Positions 36,724 through 48,128 are shown, numbered from the stretch's first letter. The stretch is DNA of 64,000 nt from a virus (IMGVR_UViG_3300032116_012976); one strand, 5' to 3'. Notes: a model not told the origin generated them from the sequence alone. Program-made: numbers and translations.

Positions 36724-37200
36724 TTAGGCAGCTCGTAAACTCTTAAATCTATCTGCCGCGTATGATGCTGCAAATGCTTCTGGCTTCACAAACGGAATCA
36801 CATTGCATGTTCCTTTGATGTAGCCCACAGCTTGCGAGATCACACAACTTGAACCGTATTGTTCGTCTGGGTTGATGTCCAAGTGAACTTCAACTTGACG
36901 GCCTTCTAGTACGTCAGCCAGTTTCAAATACAGTTCTGAAACCTTGTACACTTCGGTCATCAAACGCATGGCAGGTTTGCCTGGTTTCACGTCCCACACA
37001 CGCTCGCGTTGAACTTCGCCAAACAGTTTGCAGCCGTTGTTGCCGTTGATGTGTACCACAATGGCCAACACATAGTCGGCATACCAGGTACCGTCAATTT
37101 TGATTCGTTCAGAGTCGCAGCCAAGGTAGATGCGAGTTTCGGGCGTTTGTTTCTGGATAAATTCTGCTACTGATGCTATATCGAGCTTTTTCATTTTCAA
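36724..37200 (-). CDS. YkuK/DUF458-like predicted RNase H-fold protein
   Basis: IYLGCDSERIKIDGTWYADYVLAIVVHINGNNGCKLF...EVHLDINPDEQYGS recalled as the ykuK-family pattern. From memory only. Confidence 0.45.
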   Translation of the reverse strand: MKMKKLDIASVAEFIQKQTPETRIYLGCDSERIKIDGTWYADYVLAIVVHINGNNGCKLFGEVQRERVWDVKPGKPAMRLMTEVYKVSELYLKLADVLEGRQVEVHLDINPDEQYGSSCVISQAVGYIKGTCNVIPFVKPEAFAASYAADRFKSLRAA

Positions 37201-40103: not shown

Positions 40104-40178
40104 TGGGGTGTCGTATGAGAATCGAACTCATGACAGCGGAATCACAACCCGCGGTTTTGCCACTAAACTAACGTCACC
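40104..40178 (-). tRNA. tRNA-His(GTG)
   Basis: Anticodon loop TTGTGAT, C73 and an encoded G-1 (His hallmarks), CCA encoded. Confidence 0.8.
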
Positions 40179-40267
40179 ATATAGGAACACACTCAGGCGT
40201 AGTAGTTCGTTAGCCCACTAAGATACACGGCTACCACCCGTGTCATTAGTTGAATGTGTTTTTATAT
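40179..40267 (-). ncRNA. clamp-stem element filling the His-Lys tRNA spacer (89 nt)
   Basis: Arms atataggaacacactc (40179..40194) and gaatgtgtttttatat (40252..40267) pair around a ~57-nt insert with an internal hairpin acacgg/ccgtgt. Confidence 0.5.
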
Positions 40268-40341
40268 GGTAGGGGCGCCGGGATTCGAACCCGAAATTGG
40301 CAGATTAAAAGTCTGCTGTGATACCGTTTCACCACACCCCC
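40267..40341 (-). tRNA. tRNA-Lys(TTT)
   Basis: Anticodon stem gcaga/tctgc, loop CTTTTAA, CCA encoded. Confidence 0.8.
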
Positions 40342-40402
40342 GGTATCTTGTCACTCTTGTCACTATTCATGACAGACTCTCCTTTTTAAAATAAGTATTT
40401 GA

Positions 40403-41527
40403 ATGAACAAATATTGTCCAAAACCATTTGTTAGTATTCATATGTATACTGATAAAGATCTCAATCCAACTGTTAGGCCTTGTTGCAATTACAAACCTAT
40501 CAAGCAGTACGCAACGATTAATGATTATTTGCAATCATCTGAACTAGCGTCTCTTCAGCAACATTTGCTTACAAAAGAATCATTGCCAGATGGATGCAAG
40601 GCATGCAAAGTAGACGAAGATAATAACTTGCCTAGTATCCGAAACAAGTATATTAAAGTGTTTGAGCATGAAACCAAAACTAAAATTGTTGACTTGGAAA
40701 TTTTCCCTGGCAACGCATGTAATCTCAGTTGCTTGTCGTGCAATCCTTCTCATAGTACCAAATCAGGTCAGGAATATGCCAAACTTGGATGGATTAAACA
40801 ATCAATAGTGATCAATCACGAAGATCATGCACTTGAAGTTATTAAACAGTTGCCAGACCTTAAATCAATAGGTTTTATTGGCGGCGAATTTTTTGTAACC
40901 AAACACAATATTGAATTGCTCGATGCGGTTATTGAAAAAAATCTTAAAACACGAATTATTACCAATGCCACTCAACTAACCAAAAAACATCTTGAGCGGT
41001 TACAAAAAATATCTGACCTTGATGTGATGGTTAGTGTAGACGGTACTGGGCCAACATTTGAATTTTTACGCTATCCGGCACAATGGTCAGTTGTGCAATC
41101 AAACATTGTTGCACTACAACAGGCATTGCCCGGAGCAAAGATACATTTGTCGGCAGTGTTGCAATTTTTAAATTTGCAAAATATCATTGAACTGTTTGAA
41201 TACGCCAATGTCCGTCGACTGCCATTTAATGTGATCCCTTTATCTTATCCTGTTTGGCTACAGTCAGAAGTGCTTACCACTCTCGAACGTCAGCAGTTGA
41301 TTGCAGTTATACAAAAACAACTAACAGTTGCAAAACTTACCAAAACACAAAAACAGTTAATGACTGATACATGTAGTATGCTAGAAACAATACAGCACTC
41401 ACCTGCTCAACGAGAACAGTTTGTGTCTCGAACAAGCCAGCTGATTCGACTGCGCAACATCACACAACACACAATCAACTCAGTGTTTGGTGTGCTAGAA
41501 AATTTAGCGCAAGAAGTTATACAATAG
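40403..41527 (+). CDS. radical SAM enzyme (type B paralog) embedded in the tRNA array
   Basis: YCPKPFVSI...RPCC, CNLSCLSCN, IGGEFFV. Confidence 0.8.
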   Translation: MNKYCPKPFVSIHMYTDKDLNPTVRPCCNYKPIKQYATINDYLQSSELASLQQHLLTKESLPDGCKACKVDEDNNLPSIRNKYIKVFEHETKTKIVDLEIFPGNACNLSCLSCNPSHSTKSGQEYAKLGWIKQSIVINHEDHALEVIKQLPDLKSIGFIGGEFFVTKHNIELLDAVIEKNLKTRIITNATQLTKKHLERLQKISDLDVMVSVDGTGPTFEFLRYPAQWSVVQSNIVALQQALPGAKIHLSAVLQFLNLQNIIELFEYANVRRLPFNVIPLSYPVWLQSEVLTTLERQQLIAVIQKQLTVAKLTKTQKQLMTDTCSMLETIQHSPAQREQFVSRTSQLIRLRNITQHTINSVFGVLENLAQEVIQ

Positions 41528-41567
41528 CCAGGGACCTAACTCGTCAAGGGAGAGTATGGCTATGTGT

Positions 41568-41645
41568 TGGTACCACCTGAGAGATTCGAACTCCCCGCCC
41601 CTGCGTTCGTAGCACAGTGCTCTAATCCAAATGAGCTAAGGTGGT
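41568..41645 (-). tRNA. tRNA-Arg(ACG)
   Basis: Acceptor accacct/aggtggt, anticodon loop CTACGAA, CCA encoded. Confidence 0.75.
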
Positions 41646-41653
41646 GTATTGAA

Positions 41654-41853
41654 TTTGAGAGTAGTAGCATCACTGTTATTGCTACCATTGACCCGTGTAA
41701 TAAAGCCGGCCGGGAGGGTGATACGTCACTTGGAATACTTAACACACAGATTGATTACTTAGTTGTGTACGGAATCACGCCGCCCGTGCTTTACACTAGG
41801 TTGACCTTCGAAGAATCTTCCTAGCGTGTCTTTCTCTTGCTGACACTCTCAAA
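41654..41853 (-). ncRNA. 200-nt clamped spacer element between tRNA-Arg(ACG) and tRNA-Thr(TGT)
   Basis: Arms tttgagagt (41654..41662) and actctcaaa (41845..41853) pair. No ORF. Internal hairpins include gtagca/tgctac and ctagg/cctag. Confidence 0.4.
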
Positions 41854-41856
41854 ACT

Positions 41857-41930
41857 TGGTGCCCCACGACAGAATCGAACTGCCATCACAGGATTACAAA
41901 ACCAGTGTACTACCATTGTACTAGTAGGGC
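41857..41930 (-). tRNA. tRNA-Thr(TGT)
   Basis: GCCCTAC TA GTAC AATGGTA GTAC A CTGGT TTTGTAA TCCTG... Two U-U mismatches in the anticodon stem. CCA encoded. Confidence 0.65.
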
Positions 41931-41936
41931 GAATTG

Positions 41937-42026
41937 TGGTGGAAGACTAGGGAGTCGAACCCTATGACCCTATTACTAGAATCTACAGATTAGCAATCTG
42001 CTGCATTACCGTCCTGCCCGTCTTCC
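41937..42026 (-). tRNA. tRNA-Ser(GCT), class II
   Basis: 90 nt, acceptor ggaagac/gtcttcc, anticodon loop TTGCTAA, CCA encoded. Confidence 0.8.
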
Positions 42027-42031
42027 TGACT

Positions 42032-42107
42032 TGGCTCCCCAGCGTGGGATCGAACCACGGACACCTTGATTAACAGTCAAGTGCAACTACCGCTGTGCTA
42101 CTAGGGA
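42032..42107 (-). tRNA. tRNA-Asn(GTT)
   Basis: Anticodon stem cttga/tcaag, loop CTGTTAA, G73, CCA encoded. Confidence 0.8.
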
Positions 42108-42147
42108 ATAATCTACTTAGTAGGCACTCGAGCCTACTACAAAAATA

Positions 42148-42240
42148 TGGTGGAGCAACTTGGAGTCGAACCAAGAATGTTTACCACGAGGGGACGGATT
42201 TACAGTCCGCCGATGCACACGCCATAGCATCAATTGCTCC
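42148..42240 (-). tRNA. tRNA-Tyr(GTA), class II
   Basis: 93 nt, acceptor ggagcaa/ttgctcc, D stem GATG/CATC, anticodon loop CTGTAAA, 18-nt variable region, CCA encoded. Confidence 0.75.
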
Positions 42241-42245
42241 ATATT

Positions 42246-42320
42246 TGGTGGACCGGCGGGGGATCGAACCCCGACTAAAGGCTTGCAAAGCCCCTGTGCT
42301 CCCATTATCACTACCAGCCC
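42246..42320 (-). tRNA. tRNA-Ala(TGC)
   Basis: Anticodon loop TTTGCAA. The acceptor stem carries the G3:U70 Ala identity pair. CCA encoded. Confidence 0.8.
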
Positions 42321-42326
42321 AAATTT

Positions 42327-42400
42327 TGGCATCCCGGGAGGGACTCGAACCCCCACGAACGGTTTTGGAGACCGTCATGCTGCCATTACACCACCGAGAC
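42327..42400 (-). tRNA. tRNA-Trp(CCA)
   Basis: Anticodon stem acggt/accgt, loop CTCCAAA, G73, CCA encoded. Confidence 0.8.
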
Positions 42401-42408
42401 ATAATTTT

Positions 42409-42431
42409 AACACACTCTTGCGAATGTGTGT
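42409..42431 (-). ncRNA. GCAA-capped hairpin, minimal member of the clamp-stem family, 8 nt 5' of tRNA-Trp
   Basis: Minus strand acacattc-GCAA-gagtgtgt: 8 bp with one G:U. The same position is a C:A mismatch on the plus strand. Confidence 0.6.
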
Positions 42432-42432
42432 A

Positions 42433-42482
42433 TTAAAACATTCTAAACTACTTAGGCTGCCTGTTTGTAAAGAATGTTTTAA
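42433..42482 (-). ncRNA. 12-bp perfect clamp hairpin with 26-nt loop
   Basis: ttaaaacattct (42433..42444) pairs with agaatgttttaa (42471..42482). Confidence 0.5.
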
Positions 42483-42582
42483 TACGCTCGGATTTTTTTA
42501 TGTACAAGAACATAAGCCATCCCCGAGGCCGCCCATTTGTAGTTTAGAGTGATACAGGCTCGCGTTGCCGTTGCACTAAATG

Positions 42583-42610
42583 AAAAAACCCAGGGTTTTT
42601 ACGCCTGGGT
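42583..42610 (-). terminator. rho-independent terminator inside the ORF-free block
   Basis: acccagg...cctgggt hairpin followed, on the minus strand, by TTTTTT. Confidence 0.65.
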
Positions 42611-42818
42611 CCTTGGGTAAGATACGGTTGTATACTACTTAGGACCCTCTGCCTCCTGGAATGCTATTCATGCGACCATAGGCGTGTGACCAAACTGGTG
42701 TCTGGGCAAACTTGGGTAGCAGTGAACAATATTGTGTTTTCATCATAAGTCCTATTGTACAGTATTTACCTTTTGAGGTCAACCACTGTGTTAAAGTTAT
42801 TTAGCCTTTCGGCTGAAT

Positions 42819-42893
42819 TGGTTGCGGGGGAAGGAATCGAACCTCCGTCTCCCAGGTTATGAGCCTGGTGGTCTACCGCTGACGTACCCCGCG
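42819..42893 (-). tRNA. initiator tRNA-fMet(CAT)
   Basis: C1-A72 mismatch at the acceptor end (bacterial initiator hallmark), anticodon loop CTCATAA with a G-C-rich stem base, CCA encoded. Confidence 0.75.
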
Positions 42894-42904
42894 ATTGAAT
42901 TATT

Positions 42905-42986
42905 TATATAGAAACACACTCTATGCTTGGGGAACAATTCATTGAATTGAGCAACCACCAACGGGTACGGAGTGCGTTTGTATATA
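42905..42986 (-). ncRNA. clamp-stem element 11 nt 5' of tRNA-fMet (82 nt)
   Basis: Arms tatatagaaacacactc (42905..42921) and gagtgcgtttgtatata (42970..42986), 15 of 17 positions paired. Confidence 0.5.
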
Positions 42987-42993
42987 AAGTGGC

Positions 42994-44010
42994 GGACTGA
43001 GAATACATCCTAACCCAGTAACACCTCGGACATTATTACAAACCTTGCGAGTCTGCTTTCTTCCGATTTCCACTGCAACCATATTGCTATGTATCACAGT
43101 CTGTTACCAGTATCGCCGTTTTTAAAGACAGGCAGTAGTCTTGTCATCACATGCTACTCTACACCATCTATCCCGTTGACCTTTAGAGCCATTCACTGTC
43201 GCTAAACAGTTACGAAACTTCCAGTATAAACAGATTTCACCTTGCGAGTTACGTCTGACTGTATTGCCTTGCGGCTACAGCATTAGATACTTTTCACACA
43301 TGACCGAGTCAGTCTTTGCTTTTATGTTAGATAGTGGTTTTGAAGCCACAGCCTATTCCTTAACAGGGAATTGCTCTACGATGAGCTATATCAACCTACT
43401 GCGATGTGCTGACTCAGTTGCTTCATACTCTTTTGGAATACAAAATACAACACACCACGTTCCTTTTGTCTTGCGAACTACTCAGACGTCTTTTGCGATC
43501 AGTGTCGGGTCTCGGCTTTCGCGTACCTCCACCAACCACTCAAACTGCATACGAGCCCTTGGGTGCAACCCCTCGGACCGATACGCTACCCTTTCTCATA
43601 CCAATTAACTGGGCTGGTTTTGTATAGAAGTCAGCACCACCTGTTACTTTTCTGCAACTCCGGTTACCCTTGCGGGCCGGTAAGTTACAGCTCTTTCCTA
43701 TACTCCCAGCGTCATTGTTACAACCACCGGTCTTATCAGTGATCGGATCCTCACGGACCTGAGCAGGCTTGTTTACATGAACCATTGCTGGCGGACTTAT
43801 GTAGGCATACATCCTTTGGCTGGGTCACCCCAGTTATTCTTCGTACAGCTGGGCGAACCATACTGCACAGGACAATAAACTGCCCTATGTATCTATTGTA
43901 AGACAAACGTCTTTTGTTGTCAAACAGTTTTGGATAAATTTGTTGTTTATCTATCCAAAATAGTCTGTAACAGTTTTCTGCAGTCGTGTTACAGTGGGCA
44001 AATAAGTACC
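42994..44010 (-). ncRNA. candidate large structured ncRNA (~1 kb), class unknown (GOLLD/ROOL-like context)
   Basis: No credible ORF in an otherwise gene-dense window. Five CGCAAG (GCAA tetraloop) and two GTGA-capped hairpins on the minus strand, plus many local stems. Flanked by tRNAs. Confidence 0.4.
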
Positions 44011-44014
44011 CCAC

Positions 44015-44986
44015 ATGATCACTGAAATCTTAACCTATCACCACAGTCTCGACTGGAACATTGAACAATTCGTTGATAGCACATGTCTAGCAAACATTGT
44101 TCAGCCACACTGGCCAATGGTAACTTCTTCCAAAGGAGGATTGATACCAACAAATAAACCCAGCCGAGACTTTTTTGAGCTCAATAAAAAACGAGGACGT
44201 CCTACTGAACTTAGGAACAGTACCATTGACGCCTTGGTCAGTCTTGTGGCAACAAAATTGCATCTCAACGGATTTGTTACGAATGTGGTAGCAGAATGCA
44301 GTGGAAGCATGCATGCCTTGTACACTGCATCCATGGTGAGCTTGCAACACCAATTACCAGTGATTGTTTTTTGTGCTGATAATTTAGTTGATGACGAACT
44401 TCACATGTGGCGATTTGCCAGTATGGGTGCATTGGATCAATCCTCAGGAAGAGCATTTGACTCAACCAGTACTGGATTTCGAATGGGTAGAGGCATGGCT
44501 GCAATGTTGATAAAACATCCAAGTGTAAAATTCAACATGAGTGCATTTGCCACAATCAGCAATTATATCTTTCGTACCAACCCCACACTCATAGCCAATC
44601 CAGGTGATGCGCACCAATTGGCCAGAGATATTTCTGGCATCAATTTTGACACCATTGATTTTTGGAATGCACATGCAACAGGCACTCCAGTGGGAGATCA
44701 ATTTGAGTACAATGTTTTTAATTCTTTAGTTCACAAAGACATACCTATTGTCAGCTACAAAAGCCGCATAGGGCACTGTATCTCAGCCAGCGGCGCCATT
44801 GAAATGTGCATGAGTTTTGACGATTACCGTGCAAAAACCCTAAGACCCAATGTGTTAGCTGGTGATCTCATAGTCAAAGATTCAAGGATCATCGTAGATG
44901 CTGTGCCGTTTCCGGGCAAACGCATACTCAAGGCCAATTTTGGATTTGGCGGCAAAAACAGTTTTTGCCAAATTGACATTGAATAG
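44015..44986 (+). CDS. beta-ketoacyl-ACP synthase I/II-like (short, 323 aa)
   Basis: Cys-His-His triad context: AECSGSMHALY, NAHATGTPVGD, KSRIGHCISASGAIE. C-terminal FGFGGKNS. N-terminal region is shorter than FabB/FabF. No obvious RBS. Confidence 0.75.
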   Translation: MITEILTYHHSLDWNIEQFVDSTCLANIVQPHWPMVTSSKGGLIPTNKPSRDFFELNKKRGRPTELRNSTIDALVSLVATKLHLNGFVTNVVAECSGSMHALYTASMVSLQHQLPVIVFCADNLVDDELHMWRFASMGALDQSSGRAFDSTSTGFRMGRGMAAMLIKHPSVKFNMSAFATISNYIFRTNPTLIANPGDAHQLARDISGINFDTIDFWNAHATGTPVGDQFEYNVFNSLVHKDIPIVSYKSRIGHCISASGAIEMCMSFDDYRAKTLRPNVLAGDLIVKDSRIIVDAVPFPGKRILKANFGFGGKNSFCQIDIE

Positions 44987-44990
44987 ATTC

Positions 44991-45140
44991 TATAGTCAAG
45001 CACCGAGAGATGCTCAATTTATGCGTCCTCCGCTAAGAGTGCAATAGCCGATAGCAGTTATATTAGGATCCGTTCCCGGCCGGTTGGACCCGAATAGCGT
45101 AAGCGTCCTTACACGATACCTTTATCGGTGCTTGACTATA
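44991..45140. ncRNA. 150-nt element closed by a perfect 16-bp clamp, directly after the KAS stop codon
   Basis: tatagtcaagcaccga (44991..45006) pairs with tcggtgcttgactata (45125..45140). The interior has gc-GTAA-gc, ccggccgg and gcg/cgc stems. Confidence 0.45.
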
Positions 45141-45173
45141 AAAACTAAAAGTTCGGATTTGAAAATCAAATCC
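45141..45173 (-). terminator. possible terminator of the upstream minus-strand RNA
   Basis: ggatttga-aaa-tcaaatcc hairpin (45155..45173) followed, on the minus strand, by T-rich gaacTTTTagTTTTTat. Confidence 0.45.
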
Positions 45174-45590
45174 TCCCACTGCTAACTACTGCTTCCCAAT
45201 TTATCGTCCATCGGCACCCGTGGTAGGGCTTGCGATGCTCATCGGCCCTGAGTTCTGGCTCAGGTGATCCTTGGGATAGGACTGCTGGGCCTTGTCCTGC
45301 CCAGCATCAGGAAAATTAGTTGCTCTGCATCCCCCGGCGGTAATTGTAGTGCATCATCTCTTGGGTTGCCCCGCAATTCTCACACACCTTCCACCCGCTT
45401 CCCGACAGGGACCGCTATCGTGTTGCTAACGGCCTTTCGGTAAGAAGACTACCACCCTTGAGAGTCACCTCACTTCTTATCCTGCGGGTCACAGTATCCG
45501 CTAACCAAGCGGAACGTCGGGGAGAAGCCACGGTTGCAGGACCTAGTGCTCTTGCGAGGAAGTGTCCAGGCGATGTGGCTTCAAACTTGA
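45174..45590 (-). ncRNA. candidate structured ncRNA (~420 nt), class unknown
   Basis: ORF-free. Hairpins cctgag/ctcagg, tgctggg/cccagca, agggc/gccct, tccgc/gcgga. Two more CGCAAG on the minus strand (plus CTTGCG at 45229 and 45551). Confidence 0.35.
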
Positions 45591-45679
45591 GGCATCATGT
45601 GGGATTCGAACCCACGCAAGAAAACCTTGATGATCATTCAAGGTTGAAGCAAACCACACTCCGTTACATCCTATGACGC
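45591..45679 (-). ncRNA. tRNA-like element A (89 nt; canonical acceptor and T arm, non-canonical core, no CCA)
   Basis: GCGTCAT...GTGGG TTCGAAT CCCAC ATGATGC C. The core is an 8-bp hairpin with loop ATGATCA. No D-arm could be folded. Confidence 0.4.
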
Positions 45680-45687
45680 CATAAACT

Positions 45688-45778
45688 TGGTGGACAACAA
45701 TGGGAATCTAACCCACTTCTTCCTCGTATGCTATTACGAAGTTTCATACCAGCCTCAGGTAATTGACACATCATGTCC
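45688..45778 (-). ncRNA. tRNA-like element B (91 nt; degenerate)
   Basis: T-arm GTGGG TTAGATT CCCAT, 5-bp acceptor, CCA encoded. No canonical anticodon arm (7-bp stem CTTCGTA/TACGAGG with a 6-nt loop). Confidence 0.35.
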
Positions 45779-45785
45779 ATAAACT

Positions 45786-45860
45786 TGGCGGTCCCAGGGG
45801 GTAACGATCCCCCTCCTCAGCAGTGACAGTGCTGTGTGCGTCCATGAACACCTTGAGACC
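45786..45860 (-). tRNA. tRNA-Asp(GTC)
   Basis: GGTCTCA AG GTGT TCATGGAC GCAC A CAGCA CTGTCAC TGCTG AGGA GGGGG ATCGTTA CCCCC TGGGACC G CCA. Confidence 0.75.
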
Positions 45861-46063
45861 AAATTAGGATAAGCTACTGGGTTCCACGCCAGCCCTTAAT
45901 TGAGCAGTTACTCTGTCCATCTCATTTATTCAAAGTCTGTGTGCAGTGAGATTCTGCCTATCAGAGTCTGTAAGGGTAGTCTCCATCCTTACGCTTACGG
46001 TCTTCTGCCACCGGATCTCTATCGCTAATCAAACGCTACTTTAACGAAAGTAGTAACGGGATT

Positions 46064-46138
46064 TGGTAGAGCGTAGGGGAATCGAACCCCTCTTACAGGC
46101 GTGAAAGGCTTGTGTCCTAACCGATAGACGAACGCTCC
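46064..46138 (-). tRNA. tRNA-Glu(TTC)
   Basis: G1:U72, T-arm agggg/cccct, anticodon loop CTTTCAC, CCA encoded. Confidence 0.8.
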
Positions 46139-46147
46139 ATAGTTCAC

Positions 46148-46376
46148 TATATGAAAACACATTAGGGAAGTTCTTGACACGCATCACCAACTTGCATCAA
46201 GACCTCATTACAGGCCCAGTAGTTCCGCCGCCTTCCTGGAGTTTGGTGTAGCCTTATCCCTCACGCTCGATGGTGTCTCGCGCTACTCTTAGGCCCTCCT
46301 GCTTCATGGGTATCCGGCTCGAATCAGCCTTTGTTCACCCCTAACGGACTAGGTAACCCTAATGTGTTTACATATA
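46148..46376 (-). ncRNA. clamp-stem element 9 nt 5' of tRNA-Glu (229 nt)
   Basis: Arms tatatgaaaacacattaggg (46148..46167) and ccctaatgtgtttacatata (46357..46376), 19 of 20 paired, enclosing ~190 nt without an ORF. Confidence 0.5.
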
Positions 46377-46473
46377 GTGCCCAGAACTTAATCTGGGGCA
46401 CTATACAAAATTAAATTTTTAACGAACTTCAAAGTAGTTTCGATCAACTGCCTTTGTTTTCTAACTAGTCTCT

Positions 46474-46502
46474 AGTATAGCATCTCCTGCTTTACTGGTC
46501 AA
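46474..46502 (-). promoter_or_regulatory. sigma70-type promoter TTGACC-N17-TATACT (TGn) reading into the tRNA/ncRNA array
   Basis: Minus strand: ttgaccagtaaagcaggagatgcTATACT. Confidence 0.6.
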
Positions 46503-46571: not shown

Positions 46572-46600
46572 AGTATAGCACCAATCCAATTATTGGTCTA
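46572..46600 (-). promoter_or_regulatory. tandem second copy of the promoter (TAGACC-N17-TATACT)
   Basis: Minus strand: tagaccaataattggattggtgcTATACT. About 98 nt upstream of the first copy, with shared flank ttttctaact.gt.tctagtatagca. Confidence 0.45.
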
Positions 46601-46656: not shown

Positions 46657-47547
46657 TTAGAACTGTACGACCAACCCGCCTGCTACTTGTTTGACATCAG
46701 TGGCTGCTGAGGTTCCCTCAACTGTACGATACAAAACTTGTGCATAGGTCTTTTTGCTGAAAGCATACTCAGCACCTACGTTGTAACTCTTGATGCCATT
46801 TTCAATGCGACCATAGCTGGCCTTCACTGTGACTGGTCCACCAAGTTTGTGTGCCACGCCGACCAACTGAGCACGGTTGGTGTTGGCAGCAACGCCTTTG
46901 TTGTCGCTTGCGCTGGCAAACACAGTGGTTGCACCAAATTTAGCACGAGCAGCCAACACGTCACTGGTTTCTGCGCCAGCTTCGTAACGAGCATAAGTCA
47001 ACACAGCAGGTCCAACTGCGGCAATCACGGATGCGGCATAAGGATCAGCGGCAGTGCCAACAGCACCAGTGCTACGATCAAAGTTAGCAGAGACATTGCC
47101 AAAGTTCACAGAAGTGAAAGCGGCATTGCTCAAACGCAAACCACGCAGGTTATGCACGTCGGCAGCTGAGCTACCAATCAATGTGCCAAATGGATCATTG
47201 TCGCTGATGGCCAAGAAGTGAGTGTGAACATTGCGACCAAGATCAACGCTACCCATTTTGTGAGCAATACCCACGGTGCTTTGGCGATCGCCAAGTCTAG
47301 TGTCAGTACCAGTGTCTGGGCTGTTGGCTTGGATGCCGGTCTCGTATGTGGCACGAGCTGTTAATCCGCCACCTAAGTTTTCAGTAGCACGAATGCCAAA
47401 GTGACTCAAGTCATTGGCCATGCCTTGCACGGTGGAAGCACCAGTTTTGGTGTTGTCAAGGTAAGTGCCAACACGACCATAGATACCAACTTGTGCGCTT
47501 GCAACACCAGCAACTGCCAGGGTCAACGCAATTAGAACTTTCTTCAT
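46657..47547 (-). CDS. outer-membrane porin (Gram-negative trimeric porin family)
   Basis: Signal peptide MKKVLIALTLAVAGVASAQV, alternating beta-strand pattern, C-terminal ...GGLVVQF with terminal Phe. RBS aaggaaa. Confidence 0.8.
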   Translation of the reverse strand: MKKVLIALTLAVAGVASAQVGIYGRVGTYLDNTKTGASTVQGMANDLSHFGIRATENLGGGLTARATYETGIQANSPDTGTDTRLGDRQSTVGIAHKMGSVDLGRNVHTHFLAISDNDPFGTLIGSSAADVHNLRGLRLSNAAFTSVNFGNVSANFDRSTGAVGTAADPYAASVIAAVGPAVLTYARYEAGAETSDVLAARAKFGATTVFASASDNKGVAANTNRAQLVGVAHKLGGPVTVKASYGRIENGIKSYNVGAEYAFSKKTYAQVLYRTVEGTSAATDVKQVAGGLVVQF

Positions 47548-47595: not shown

Positions 47596-47625
47596 ATTAT
47601 ATAGCACAAACACTGAGAATGTCAA
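47596..47625 (-). promoter_or_regulatory. sigma70-type promoter TTGACA-N18-TATAAT for the porin gene
   Basis: Minus strand: ttgacattctcagtgtttgtgctaTATAAT. Confidence 0.55.
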
Positions 47626-47651
47626 AGAAAATGGCTACTTTCGCAGCCATT
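47622..47651 (-). terminator. terminator at the end of the tmRNA coding piece
   Basis: aatggct-gcgaaagt-agccatt hairpin followed, on the minus strand, by ttttcttt. Confidence 0.65.
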
Positions 47652-47813
47652 TTGGTGGTTTCTGTTACGAGGTATTTCCTACCCTAGACGACCTTAAGCG
47701 GCCATCAAGAATTTTTCATCATTTGCAGATAAAAGTTTTGCTTGATTTACGGTCATCGCCTACCGTGCTGTCCACTCTGTTACTCTTTGCCCTGTCGAAT
47801 CTAGGTCAGGCCC
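47630..47813 (-). ncRNA. ssrA: tmRNA coding piece (two-piece / permuted ssrA)
   Basis: Starts GGGCCTGACCTAGATTCGAC (compare the standard GGGGCUGAUUCUGGAUUCGAC). Contains the tag frame. The 3' boundary is approximate. Confidence 0.8.
47694..47726 (-). other. ssrA: tmRNA tag reading frame ANDEKFLMAA*
   Basis: GCA AAT GAT GAA AAA TTC TTG ATG GCC GCT TAA. The ANDE...AA pattern is typical of proteobacterial tags. Confidence 0.8.
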
Positions 47814-48028
47814 ATCATAAAGAAACTTAATCTACGCTTAATGTTGTTAACAACAAGCATAATATTGGAAAAACAATTAATAAAAATTTTGCTAAATTTT
47901 CCATATTACCATAACTCACAGTTTTTTATTTTCTCTTCGTCCAATGTGGTATCACGTGTAAAATAAAATACACCAAACACTAACCAAAATAACAAAAATA
48001 AAACATAACCTATCATTAAACTTCCTTA

Positions 48029-48093
48029 TGGTGGACCTGGGGGGATTCGCACCCCCGTCCAGAACACTTTTCTCTCGGCTTCATACAGCAATA
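48029..48093 (-). ncRNA. ssrA: tmRNA acceptor piece (T-arm + 3' acceptor strand + ACCA)
   Basis: ...GGAC GGGGG TGCGAAT CCCCC CAGGTCC A CCA. Pairs with GGGCCTG of the coding piece, giving G3:U70. The 5' boundary is inferred from the promoter. Confidence 0.75.
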
Positions 48094-48099
48094 ACTCGC

Positions 48100-48128
48100 A
48101 GTATATATTTATTCTTTGGGCTTGTCAA
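48100..48128 (-). promoter_or_regulatory. sigma70-type promoter TTGACA-N17-TATACT for the tmRNA precursor
   Basis: Minus strand: ttgacaagcccaaagaataaataTATACT. Confidence 0.6.

What the first reader, a model, noticed from the sequence alone, without database searches (positions are those of the whole stretch)
40179..46376. Conserved 'clamp-stem' family immediately 5' of four tRNAs, with loops ranging from 4 nt to about 190 nt
Four elements share the same arms, (TATAT)-N-AAACACAYTC / GAGTGYGTTT-N-(ATATA), and each ends 0-11 nt from the mature 5' end of a tRNA. (1) Trp, 42409..42431: the loop is just GCAA. (2) His, 40179..40267: ~57-nt insert. (3) fMet, 42905..42986: ~48-nt insert. (4) Glu, 46148..46376: ~190-nt insert. 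In the Trp copy the imperfect pair is G:U on the minus strand but C:A on the plus strand, so the structure belongs to the tRNA-sense transcript. Other spacers are closed by unrelated perfect clamps (41654..41853, 42433..42482, 44991..45140). The pattern looks like a conserved processing or leader hairpin whose loop has repeatedly accepted inserts, or like a family of small structured RNAs matured together with tRNAs. Phage T4 likewise has stable RNAs of unknown function in its tRNA cluster.
Basis: seen in the sequence. Interest (0 to 1): 0.6.

Follow-up and report, generated by a model that had tools for sequence, protein, structure and literature searches.

The report
Shared-stem hairpin RNAs in phage tRNA arrays
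The four elements are real members of a large, apparently undescribed family of tRNA-sized hairpin RNAs in the tRNA gene arrays of big freshwater phages: all share one ~18-bp closing stem, carry very different structured interiors, and usually start exactly at the CCA end of tRNA-Lys(UUU).

Summary
All four elements fold as described.

The same arms occur in more than 140 IMG/VR phage contigs: 262 copies, 233 unique, none in shuffled sequence. They also occur in one cultured phage, Synechococcus phage BUCT-ZZ01. They are essentially absent from 185,579 bacterial and archaeal genomes.

The consensus is CCAUAUA-(A)-AAACACAYU [body] AGUGUGUUU-(C)-UAUAUGG. It has an A·C mismatch at position 8 and a U·G wobble at position 16. 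Orientation relative to the tRNAs is fixed. Eighteen of 20 stem pairs covary (0/500 shuffles reach the observed score).

The "inserts" are not junk. They fall into about 172 body types with a median element length of 87 nt. Within types, compensatory changes are five-fold above a shuffled null. Five alleles have no body at all.

125 of 233 copies start exactly at the encoded CCA of an upstream tRNA. In independently retrieved loci this is 10/12 tRNA-Lys(UUU) genes against 1/257 genes of tRNA types other than Lys, Gln and Glu. Copies also follow the CCA-ending 3' end of GOLLD RNA.

Best reading (inferred, about 0.5): an RNA-level processing and stability stem that punctuates polycistronic tRNA/ncRNA transcripts and carries diverse small structured RNAs. 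There is no Rfam match, and four targeted searches of the held paper library found no description.

The parts
40177..40269 (-). Clamp element between tRNA-Lys(UUU) and tRNA-His. The 5' arm is 40269-40253 (CCAUAUAAAAACACAUU; the first three nt are the CCA of tRNA-Lys). The body is 40252-40194. The 3' arm is 40193-40177 (its last GG is G-1/G+1 of tRNA-His).
   Evidence: Fold (-34.3 kcal/mol, z = -4.3); paired-arm scan. The same body recurs in L143 next to tRNA-Arg.
42904..42987 (-). Clamp element directly 3' of GOLLD RNA and 10 nt 5' of tRNA-fMet. The arms are UUAUAUACAAACGCACU and AGUGUGUUUCUAUAUAA.
   Evidence: Fold (z = -5.2). The orthologue in L001 has compensatory arm changes and a different body. 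A homologous body is visible in L053 (sequence; by eye). GOLLD 3' ends are followed by a clamp in 5 phages.
46147..46377 (-). Large 'Glu-type' clamp. The stem is 9 bp + U/U + 13 bp (arms CUAUAUGUAAACACAUU and AAUGUGUUUUCAUAUAG) and encloses a 197-nt conserved body. It is the first structured element after the promoter-like site at 46502-46474 and lies 8 nt before tRNA-Glu.
   Evidence: Fold. Nine homologues were aligned, with invariant GGUUACC...GUAGG and GUAAUG motifs and a covarying closing stem. Promoter scan.
42409..42431 (-). Mini-hairpin ACACACAUUC-GCAA-GAGUGUGUU. It is the inner half of the clamp stem capped by a GNRA tetraloop, 8 nt before tRNA-Trp.
   Evidence: Fold. The exact 20-mer is found in 27 IMG/VR stretches, upstream of varying tRNAs (Trp, Ala, Cys, Gln, Tyr, Ile, Glu).
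42431..42484 (-). Short-bodied family variant (arms UAUUAAAACAUUCU/AGAAUGUUUUAAUA) immediately 5' of the mini-hairpin. In other phages the arms GUAUUAAAG/CUUUAAUAC are kept while the interior varies.
   Evidence: Fold (z = -7.1); covariance-model hit at 20 bits, E about 0.04; context in 28 loci.
40267..40341 (-). tRNA-Lys(UUU), whose encoded CCA forms the first three pairs of the clamp.
   Evidence: In independently retrieved loci, 10/12 tRNA-Lys(UUU) genes are followed by a clamp.
42994..43895 (-). GOLLD RNA. The Rfam match is 42994-43458. The 5' part and the promoter-like site TTGACA-17-TACAAT at 43923-43895 are inferred. Its 3' end ...CAGUCCGCCA is followed 6 nt later by the clamp.
   Evidence: (204 bits).
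44991..45140 (-). A separate clamp-closed small RNA (arms UAUAGUCAAGCACCGA/UCGGUGCUUGACUAUA). It belongs to a different family, and its body is conserved in L001.
   Evidence: Fold (z = -5.3); the L001 orthologue shows apparently compensatory differences when read by eye.
41654..41853 (-). A separate clamp-closed RNA between tRNA-Thr and tRNA-Arg, with different arms. It is partly conserved in L001.
   Evidence: Fold; sequence comparison.

Best explanation
The elements are RNA-level modules of the phage's polycistronic tRNA/ncRNA transcripts. Each has a constant AU-rich closing helix of about 18 bp, with a conserved A·C mismatch at position 8 and a U·G wobble at position 16. Each also has a lineage-specific structured body of about 50 nt (range 3 to about 200 nt).

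The helix begins at the encoded CCA of the upstream RNA, which is mostly tRNA-Lys(UUU) and also GOLLD. It often ends in the first GG of the next tRNA. In the precursor it therefore pairs the 3' end of one RNA with the 5' flank of the next.

I infer that the helix is a recognition and processing stalk. A double-strand-specific or sequence-specific endonuclease would cut it: host RNase III is the default candidate, and a phage factor is an alternative. RNase P at the downstream tRNA and CCA-limited exonucleolytic trimming would complete the job. Together these steps would separate the neighbouring RNAs and release the body on a stable stem as a tRNA-sized small RNA.

Shown here: the structure, its strand, its covariation, its modularity, and its placement at CCA ends. 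Inferred: the cleavage, the enzyme, and any function of the released bodies.
For: - The stems fold as predicted.
- 262 copies (233 unique) in the window plus 147 fetched phage loci, against 0 in shuffles.
- 18/20 stem pairs show double changes; covariation score 0.313 against 0.146; 0/500 shuffles reach it; register-shifted controls collapse to 57% paired or less.
- Orientation is fixed: position 8 has A·C 133 against G·U 2, and position 16 has U·G 151 against C·A 0.
- 125 of the 132 copies with an upstream tRNA within 25 nt start at offset 0 from its CCA, and 49 end exactly at tRNA +1/+2.
- Clamps follow 10/12 tRNA-Lys(UUU) genes against 1/257 genes of tRNA types other than Lys, Gln and Glu in loci retrieved without reference to the clamp.
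- Clamps follow GOLLD's CCA-ending 3' terminus in 5 phages.
- Strong promoter-like sites lie upstream of the Glu and GOLLD units, so the clamps are internal to transcripts.
- Five body-free alleles, one at the same Lys-His junction, show that the stem alone is maintained.
- Bodies have 49% GC against 40% for the loci. Within body types there are 40 compensatory double changes, against 8.1 (maximum 13) in column-shuffled nulls.
- The same body plus arms sits between different tRNAs in different phages.
- From memory, not tested here: RNase III stalks around rRNAs and T7 early RNAs, and an RNase III cut 5' of tRNA-Gln in the T4 tRNA precursor, are precedents.
Against: - There are no expression or end-mapping data, so cleavage is pure inference.
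- The stem (7 bp + mismatch + 10 bp) is at the short end for RNase III substrates, and the 8-bp GCAA mini-hairpin is too short.
- Generic RNase III recognition does not explain why the stem sequence, not only its pairing, is conserved across more than 140 contigs. That points to a sequence-specific partner that I could not identify.
- No RNase III gene is present in the window or in any fetched locus.
- A pure punctuation role does not explain structural selection on the bodies or the preference for tRNA-Lys(UUU).
- Bodies folded alone are only slightly more stable than random segments (mean z = -0.57 against -0.31, p = 0.006).
Confidence: 0.5

Rival explanations
1. The elements are free-standing functional small RNAs. 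The constant stem would be the docking site for one specific protein (phage or host). The variable bodies would be effector or decoy modules, for instance tRNA-like decoys or sponges linked to defence against nucleases that target tRNA-Lys. Processing would be only the way they are made.
For: - The stem is conserved in sequence, including a fixed A·C and a fixed U·G.
- The inner half-stem alone, capped by GCAA, is perfectly conserved in 27 loci.
- The bodies are under structural selection.
- Tandem arrays of 6-7 units occur with no tRNAs between them (L143).
- Element size clusters at tRNA size, with a median of 87 nt.
- A minority of bodies carry canonical T-arms (12/233).
- There is a strong link to tRNA-Lys(UUU), a known target of anticodon nucleases (PMC10264068; PARIS, PMC11464382).
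Against: - No partner protein was identified. No TROVE/Rsr or other RNA-binding candidate appeared in the Pfam summaries of 50 window ORFs; those summaries list at most 25 families per set.
- Body-free alleles exist.
- About 172 mutually unalignable body types argue against one shared effector function.
- Bodies show no extra complementarity to the upstream tRNA, and the window bodies have no antisense targets in the window.
Confidence: 0.27
2. The elements are miniature inverted-repeat mobile DNA elements (MITE-like). The arms would be terminal inverted repeats, inserted at TA dinucleotides in the A/T-rich spacers after tRNA CCA ends.
For: - The elements have 17-18 bp inverted termini and a total size of 70-110 bp.
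- The sequence CCA-TA-[TAAAAACAC...GTGTTTCTA]-TA-TGG is formally compatible with a TA duplication.
- CCATATGG junctions occur between some tRNAs.
- The same element is found between different tRNA pairs.
Against: - Orientation relative to transcription is invariant in 233 unique copies.
- G·U pairs work only on the sense strand.
- Copies within one genome have unrelated interiors, whereas MITE copies share theirs.
- The interiors show compensatory RNA-type evolution.
- The one empty Lys-His junction found is CCA-GTTTAT-GG, which is not a TA-duplication footprint.
- No transposase family appeared in the Pfam summaries of the window ORFs.
- The family is essentially absent from bacterial genomes.
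Confidence: 0.08
3. The element is a cis-acting regulator of the upstream tRNA. By pairing its CCA, the stem would keep tRNA-Lys(UUU), and in some lineages tRNA-Gln(UUG) and tRNA-Glu(UUC), as an inert pro-tRNA. Release would be timed, or the precursor would be shielded from host enzymes that act on the acceptor end or need a mature tRNA.
For: - The stem starts at offset 0 from the CCA in 125 of the 132 copies with an upstream tRNA within 25 nt.
- 73/98 Lys(UUU), 24/98 Gln(UUG) and 14/96 Glu(UUC) genes are followed by a clamp, against 34/2040 other tRNA genes.
- These three tRNAs are not paralogues of one another (about 60% identity, the same as unrelated tRNA pairs).
Against: - The Gln and Glu link is absent from the independently retrieved subset (0/14 and 0/10).
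- 101 of 233 clamps have no upstream tRNA within 25 nt.
- Clamps also follow GOLLD and other clamps.
- The phages are related, so the counts are not independent.
Confidence: 0.12

Closest known systems
RNase III processing stalks (16S/23S rRNA stalks; T7 early-mRNA R1.1-type sites; the RNase III cut 5' of tRNA-Gln in the phage T4 tRNA precursor). Recalled from memory, not tested here.
   Same: A long helix is formed by sequences flanking an RNA inside a polycistronic transcript. T7 sites also have an internal mismatch or loop in the helix. The enclosed RNA can be anything from a few nt to very large.
   Different: Here the stem sequence itself is conserved across hundreds of copies and many phages. 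The helix is only about 18 bp and AU-rich. It is anchored on an encoded CCA. Cleavage has not been shown.
Phage T4 stable RNAs species 1 and 2 (rnaC, rnaD) in the tRNA cluster
   Same: They are non-tRNA stable RNAs of unknown function, encoded in line with phage tRNAs and matured from the same precursor. T4 rnaC has a tRNA-like T-arm, as a few clamp bodies do.
   Different: T4's region has no member of the clamp family. rnaC and rnaD lack the 18-bp closing stem. They are single genes, not a modular multi-type family.
GOLLD / ROOL large ornate RNAs of phage tRNA islands (Rfam RF02032; PMC12286853, PMC5737381)
   Same: Same genomic niche: phage tRNA arrays, co-oriented with tRNAs, function unknown. 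In this window and four other phages a clamp directly follows GOLLD's 3' end.
   Different: The clamps are small (about 87 nt) and modular, with no sequence or structure relation to GOLLD. They are not in Rfam.
Bacterial MITEs (e.g. Correia, RUP, ERIC elements). Recalled from memory.
   Same: Short elements bounded by conserved inverted repeats that fold as hairpins when transcribed.
   Different: The clamps have a fixed orientation, unrelated interiors within one genome, sense-strand G·U pairs, and no transposase or duplication footprint.
Y RNAs / bacterial YrlA (constant protein-binding stem plus a variable, partly tRNA-like module). Recalled from memory.
   Same: A constant terminal stem with a conserved non-Watson-Crick feature plus a variable module. 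Some modules are tRNA-like.
   Different: There is no Rfam Y_RNA or YrlA hit. No Ro/Rsr (TROVE) family appeared in the Pfam summaries of the window ORFs. The stem sequence is unrelated.

Membership tests
Any Rfam 15 family | Covariance-model match at the gathering score or at E <= 1 | tested here: not met
   No hit overlaps any clamp in the window at E <= 1 over 36-50 kb. In 13 clamp-rich loci, the 150 listed of 242 matches were only tRNA, tmRNA and GOLLD; 92 lower-scoring matches were not displayed.
RNase III processing stalk (functional class) | A continuous dsRNA helix of roughly two turns, formed by sequences flanking the RNA to be released | tested here: inconclusive
   The helix is 7 bp + a 1x1 mismatch + 10-11 bp. 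The Glu-type stem has 22 bp plus a U/U mismatch. The mini-hairpin has only 8 bp.
RNase III processing stalk (functional class) | Staggered cleavage by RNase III, in vivo or in vitro | not testable with these tools
   No transcript-end data are available. No RNase III gene was found in any fetched locus.
RNase III processing stalk (functional class) | Location at junctions between mature RNAs of one transcript | tested here: met
   125 copies start at the CCA of the upstream tRNA and 49 end at tRNA +1/+2. Five follow GOLLD's 3' end. Promoter-like sites lie upstream of the units.
MITE / TIR transposon | Terminal inverted repeats | tested here: met
   The arms are 17-18 nt long.
MITE / TIR transposon | Insertion in either orientation, and target-site duplication visible against empty sites | tested here: not met
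   The asymmetric positions 8 and 16 have the same polarity in all 233 unique copies. The empty Lys-His junction is CCA-GTTTAT-GG.
MITE / TIR transposon | Copies of one genome share their internal sequence | tested here: not met
   The three full window copies have unrelated bodies. The 233 copies fall into 172 body types.
tRNA / tRNA-like element | Cloverleaf with a T-arm; match to the tRNA covariance model | tested here: not met
   No tRNA-model hit falls on the window clamps at E <= 1. Only 12/233 bodies carry a T-arm-like hairpin.
CRISPR array | Direct repeats separated by unstructured acquired spacers; cas genes nearby | tested here: not met
   Tandem arrays exist (L143). However, the 'spacers' are structured, with compensatory evolution, and recur between phages. 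No cas family appeared in the Pfam summaries of the window ORFs.
Y RNA / YrlA | A Ro/Rsr-binding helix and an adjacent rsr (TROVE) gene | tested here: not met
   There is no Rfam hit. No TROVE domain appeared in the Pfam summaries of 50 window ORFs. The rest of the phage genome was not seen.
T4 species 1/2 RNA | Sequence or structure homology to rnaC/rnaD | tested here: not met
   The T4 region contains no clamp. The folds of rnaC and rnaD lack the stem.

The most novel reading that the evidence does not exclude
The clamp is the handle of a previously unrecognised phage RNA system. One sequence-specific factor would bind or cut the constant stem (A·C at position 8, U·G at position 16). The roughly 170 or more structured bodies would form a diversifying repertoire of tRNA-sized RNAs produced alongside tRNA-Lys(UUU), and in some lineages alongside tRNA-Gln(UUG) and tRNA-Glu(UUC). 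These are the three tRNAs whose wobble uridine is 2-thiolated in bacteria (from memory), and tRNA-Lys(UUU) is a documented anticodon-nuclease target. The bodies might act as decoys, inhibitors or sensors in the arms race over tRNA-targeting host defences.
Probability: 0.15. Interest if true: 0.85.

Novelty: new variant of a known kind. Interest (0 to 1): 0.62.

Why it matters
Phage tRNA arrays are increasingly seen as counter-defence loci, yet the non-tRNA RNAs inside them (T4 species 1/2, GOLLD, ROOL) have no known function.

This family adds a very abundant class that can be defined by computation. It has an unusual architecture: one constant stem with hundreds of bodies. It also has a precise anatomical rule, starting at an encoded CCA, above all that of tRNA-Lys(UUU).

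It gives a concrete hypothesis for how long tRNA/ncRNA precursors, including GOLLD's 3' end, are cut up.

Because a cultured carrier exists (phage BUCT-ZZ01 on the model cyanobacterium S. elongatus PCC 7942), the question can be tested directly by experiment.

If the bodies prove functional, this would be a new modular RNA system in phages. If not, it is still a new processing signal, and a useful annotation that stops these spacers being called hypothetical ORFs or left blank.

Tried and rejected
1. A covariance model of the stem alone (R1) missed the three known long-bodied window copies, apparently because it cannot bridge 50-200 nt bodies. It was useful only for the short variant. I used a paired-arm regex scan with shuffle controls instead.
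2. Guide or antisense idea: the window bodies have no significant complementary targets in the window. Bodies pair no better with their own upstream tRNA than with other tRNAs of the locus (-24.2 against -25.2 kcal/mol). Rejected.
3. CRISPR-like reading of the tandem arrays. Rejected because the spacers are structured, covary and recur.
4. Anticodon-shift paralogy as an explanation of the Lys/Gln/Glu bias. Rejected: about 60% identity, the same as unrelated tRNA pairs.
6. Rsr/Ro or other obvious RNA-binding partners in the window: none appeared in the Pfam summaries.
7. Conserved promoter reading of the mini-hairpin: a TGnTAAAAT box follows it in the window, but the downstream sequence is not conserved in other phages.
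8. MAFFT/RNAalifold on the 197-nt Glu-type body resolved only the closing stem. The interior needs a hand-curated alignment.
9. Megablast and blastn against 50,697 GenBank phage records are too insensitive for 17-nt arms. BUCT-ZZ01 was found only through the neighbouring PF04308 protein.
10. Literature: four targeted searches (GOLLD/tRNA/phage; tRNA cluster/RNase III/hairpin; tRNA array/noncoding RNA; Lys/Gln/Glu/anticodon nuclease), two look-up searches (S-CRM01; BUCT-ZZ01) and four papers read found no description of these elements. The S-CRM01 genome paper was not available.

Full report
**Context.** The window carries a 13-kb array of 30 tRNA genes on the minus strand, together with a permuted tmRNA. 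It also carries a GOLLD RNA (Rfam RF02032, 204 bits, 42994-43458). A few protein genes are interspersed in the array: a radical-SAM protein, a ketoacyl-synthase-like protein, a porin, a fatty-acid desaturase and a PF04308 RNase H-like protein. The rest of the window encodes sugar-modification enzymes, ThyX, TauD and similar auxiliary genes. This is a large freshwater-type phage with no close relative among 50,697 GenBank phage records.

**Observation check.** I read the minus strand and folded each element. All four elements exist at the stated places.
- His, 40177-40269: CCAUAUA-AA-AACACAUUC ... GAGUGUGUU-CC-UAUAUGG. The first CCA is the 3' end of tRNA-Lys(UUU), and the last GG is G-1/G+1 of tRNA-His.
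- Trp, 42409-42431: an 8-bp stem with a GCAA loop.
- fMet, 42904-42987.
- Glu, 46147-46377: a 9 + 13 bp stem around a 197-nt interior.

Fold z-scores run from -2.9 to -5.2. The single 10-mer arm is not over-represented in the window (20 hits against 15.6 expected). Statistical support therefore comes from the paired arrangement and from other genomes.

**The family in other genomes.**
- A syntenic relative, L001 (radical-SAM protein 80% identical), has orthologous elements. Their arms are conserved with compensatory changes, for example C:G to G:C at the inner pair of the Lys-His copy. The post-GOLLD copy reads CAAACGCACUC/GAGUGUGUUUC in the window and AAAACACAUUC/GAAUGUGUUUU in L001. The interiors are completely different.
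- The exact mini-hairpin 20-mer occurs in 27 IMG/VR stretches, on contigs up to 303 kb. There it precedes different tRNAs and always follows a second hairpin whose arms (GUAUUAAAG/CUUUAAUAC) are constant and whose interior varies.
Of 150 hits, 145 have a complementary 5' arm within 460 nt.
- A relaxed two-arm scan of the window plus 147 fetched phage loci (1.37 Mb in all) found 262 copies (233 unique), against 0 in shuffled sequences.
- A two-arm pattern found one hit in 185,579 bacterial and archaeal species genomes. It lies on a 1.5-kb contig binned to a freshwater Planktophila MAG, and that contig itself holds three clamps.
- One cultured carrier was found through a neighbouring gene: Synechococcus phage BUCT-ZZ01, where tRNA-Lys(UUU) is followed by two tandem clamps and then tRNA-Met. 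All of this is unannotated.

**Anatomy of the stem**. Positions 1-7 and 9-18 pair.
- Position 8 is A·C in 133 of 233 unique copies, G-C in 45 and A-U in 16.
- Position 16 is U·G in 151, C-G in 58 and U-A in 23.
- Double (compensatory) changes occur at 18 of 20 pairs. Examples are position 7 (A-U 105, U-A 31, G-C 12) and position 18 (A-U 53, C-G 20, G-C 19, U-A 10).
- The covariation score is 0.313 against 0.146 in shuffles (0/500 reach it). Sliding the register drops pairing from 89% to 57% or less.
- Part of the percentage paired is there by construction, because the scan required at least 14 of 17 pairs. The double changes are not.
- Summing the per-position table over positions 1-17 without position 8 gives 282 G·U against 32 A·C pairs. 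The polarity of positions 8 and 16 never flips. The folded strand is therefore the tRNA-sense strand, and the orientation is fixed.
- The stem is AU-rich (30% GC), against 49% for the bodies and 40% for the loci.

**The interiors.** Total length clusters at tRNA size (median 87 nt). There are five body-free alleles (38-43 nt) and a discrete class of 213-248 nt.
- BLAST clustering gives about 172 body types among the 233 unique copies. Even so, types recur between phages together with their arms and next to different tRNAs. For example, the window's His-clamp body recurs in L143 before tRNA-Arg. One type sits after Gln, Lys or Leu. Another sits after Lys, Gln or Ala.
- Within types, changed pairs are 40 compensatory, 44 G·U-type and 5 broken. 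Column-shuffled nulls give 8.1 compensatory changes (maximum 13). Body structure is therefore selected.
- Folded alone, the bodies are only modestly more stable than random segments.
- Twelve of 233 bodies carry a T-arm-like hairpin.
- The Glu-type body is a conserved RNA of about 190 nt with invariant GGUUACC...GUAGG and GUAAUG motifs in nine phages.
- L143 holds six to seven clamps in tandem, separated only by UAA.

**Placement.**
- 125 copies start at offset 0 from the CCA of an upstream tRNA, and 49 end exactly on the first GG of a tRNA.
- Across all loci, 73/98 tRNA-Lys(UUU), 24/98 tRNA-Gln(UUG) and 14/96 tRNA-Glu(UUC) genes are followed by a clamp, against 34/2040 other tRNA genes. These three tRNAs are not paralogues of one another.
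- In the subset retrieved without using the clamp (window plus L001-L028), the Lys link holds (10/12, against 1/257 genes of tRNA types other than Lys, Gln and Glu). The Gln and Glu link does not (0/14 and 0/10). I therefore treat the Gln/Glu part as suggestive only.
- GOLLD's 3' end (...CUCAGUCCNCCA) is followed by a clamp in the window, L001, L030, L062 and L077, and by a tRNA in L033. The common denominator is an upstream RNA that ends in an encoded CCA.
- Strong promoter-like sites precede the Glu-clamp unit and GOLLD, so the clamps lie inside transcripts.

**Interpretation.** The data establish an RNA-level, sense-strand, modular element. Because the stem alone is maintained in some alleles, and because it bridges the 3' end of one RNA and the 5' flank of the next, the most economical mechanism is a processing and stability stalk. 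An endonuclease would cut the helix. RNase P would define the downstream 5' end. Exonucleases would stop at CCA. The body would stay on a stable stem as a small RNA. This mechanism is inferred, not shown.

Three things argue against a generic RNase III site: the stem sequence is conserved, the helix is short, and the bodies are under selection. These features favour a specific partner and possibly a function for the bodies. The second rival and the novel case cover that possibility.

A MITE-like origin is unlikely, given the fixed orientation, the unrelated interiors within one genome, the lack of a duplication footprint and the absence of a transposase.

Guide or antisense roles and CRISPR-like readings found no support.

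**Comparison with known systems.**
- No Rfam family matches.
- T4's rnaC and rnaD share the niche but not the architecture.
- GOLLD and ROOL share the niche (PMC12286853, PMC5737381).
- RNase III stalks share the logic (from memory).
- Four targeted literature searches, two look-up searches and four papers read gave no description of these hairpins.

I therefore rate the finding as a new variant of a known kind: a structured RNA or processing signal of phage tRNA arrays. There is a modest chance (about 0.15) that it is the handle of something new.

Noticed in passing
window 36724-37200 (-): A PF04308/DUF458 'RNase H-like' ORF (phrog_11311, function unknown) sits inside the tRNA array, co-oriented with the tRNAs. 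tblastn finds it in 35 of the 147 fetched loci besides the window, and in 77 cultured large, tRNA-rich phages. In Stenotrophomonas phage DLP6 it directly follows tRNA-Lys-TTT. It is a candidate tRNA-array-associated nuclease.
   Followed up: partly
window 42988-43000; L001, L030, L062, L077, L033: GOLLD RNAs of this phage group end in an encoded ...CUCAGUCCNCCA. This end is immediately followed by a clamp or, in L033, by a tRNA. That suggests GOLLD's 3' end is made by the same route as a tRNA 3' end.
   Followed up: partly
window 43325-43395 (-): A tRNA-model hit (50.6 bits) lies inside the GOLLD RNA. ARAGORN calls the equivalent in L001 tRNA-Asn(GUU). This matches the reported presence of tRNAs in the GOLLD linker (PMC12286853).
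   Followed up: no
window about 45150-45575 (-); L001 14200-14554: A large GC-rich, apparently structured RNA has no Rfam hit and is conserved in L001. There, a tRNA-Tyr gene is inserted in its 5' part.
   Followed up: no
window 45590-45785 (-): Two tRNA-like sequences downstream of tRNA-Asp end in CCA and have T-arm-like hairpins, but neither ARAGORN nor the Rfam tRNA model calls them.
   Followed up: no
window 46147-46377 (-) and L002, L003, L007, L022, L066, L086, L133, L138: The 190-nt 'Glu-type' body is a conserved RNA in its own right, with invariant GGUUACC...GUAGG and GUAAUG motifs. Its internal structure was not solved.
   Followed up: partly
L094, L140, L019, L116, L022, L031, L055 (downstream of clamps): A recurrent unknown RNA-like sequence, GGUAAAUGUUAUCUGCAGGUAGCAUCCAUAUUGGGGAGUAAUUA, begins right after the clamp's terminal GG.
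   Followed up: no
L150 (Stenotrophomonas phage DLP6, KU682439.2 101089-115544): Its tRNA cluster has many tRNA-sized non-tRNA spacers with closing stems or T-arm-like hairpins. One repeated hairpin shows compensatory changes (GGUUGC/GCAACC against GGAUAC/GUAUCC). Small hairpin RNAs in phage tRNA arrays may therefore be general, with lineage-specific stems.
   Followed up: partly
L001 8920-9030 (-) and many loci after clamps: A tRNA-Ser(UGA)-like gene beginning GGAAGAUGAUGCAG... recurs directly after Gln-clamps but is not called by ARAGORN.
   Followed up: no
L148 (CAZQNP010000058.1, 1478 nt): The only genome-contig hit is a short contig binned to a Candidatus Planktophila MAG. It carries three clamps and is most likely a mis-binned phage fragment.
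   Followed up: partly
window 47603-48121 (-); 46657-47547 (-): The window holds a permuted (two-piece) tmRNA of betaproteobacterial type (tag ANDEKFLMAA) and a Gram-negative porin gene next to the tRNA array. Both are hints about the host.
   Followed up: no
window 46572-46600 and 46474-46502 (-): Two near-identical promoter-like sites (TTGACC or TAGACC, 17 nt, TATACT with an upstream TG) are followed by the shared sequence AGAsACwAGUUAGAAAA. They lie upstream of the Glu-type clamp.
   Followed up: no
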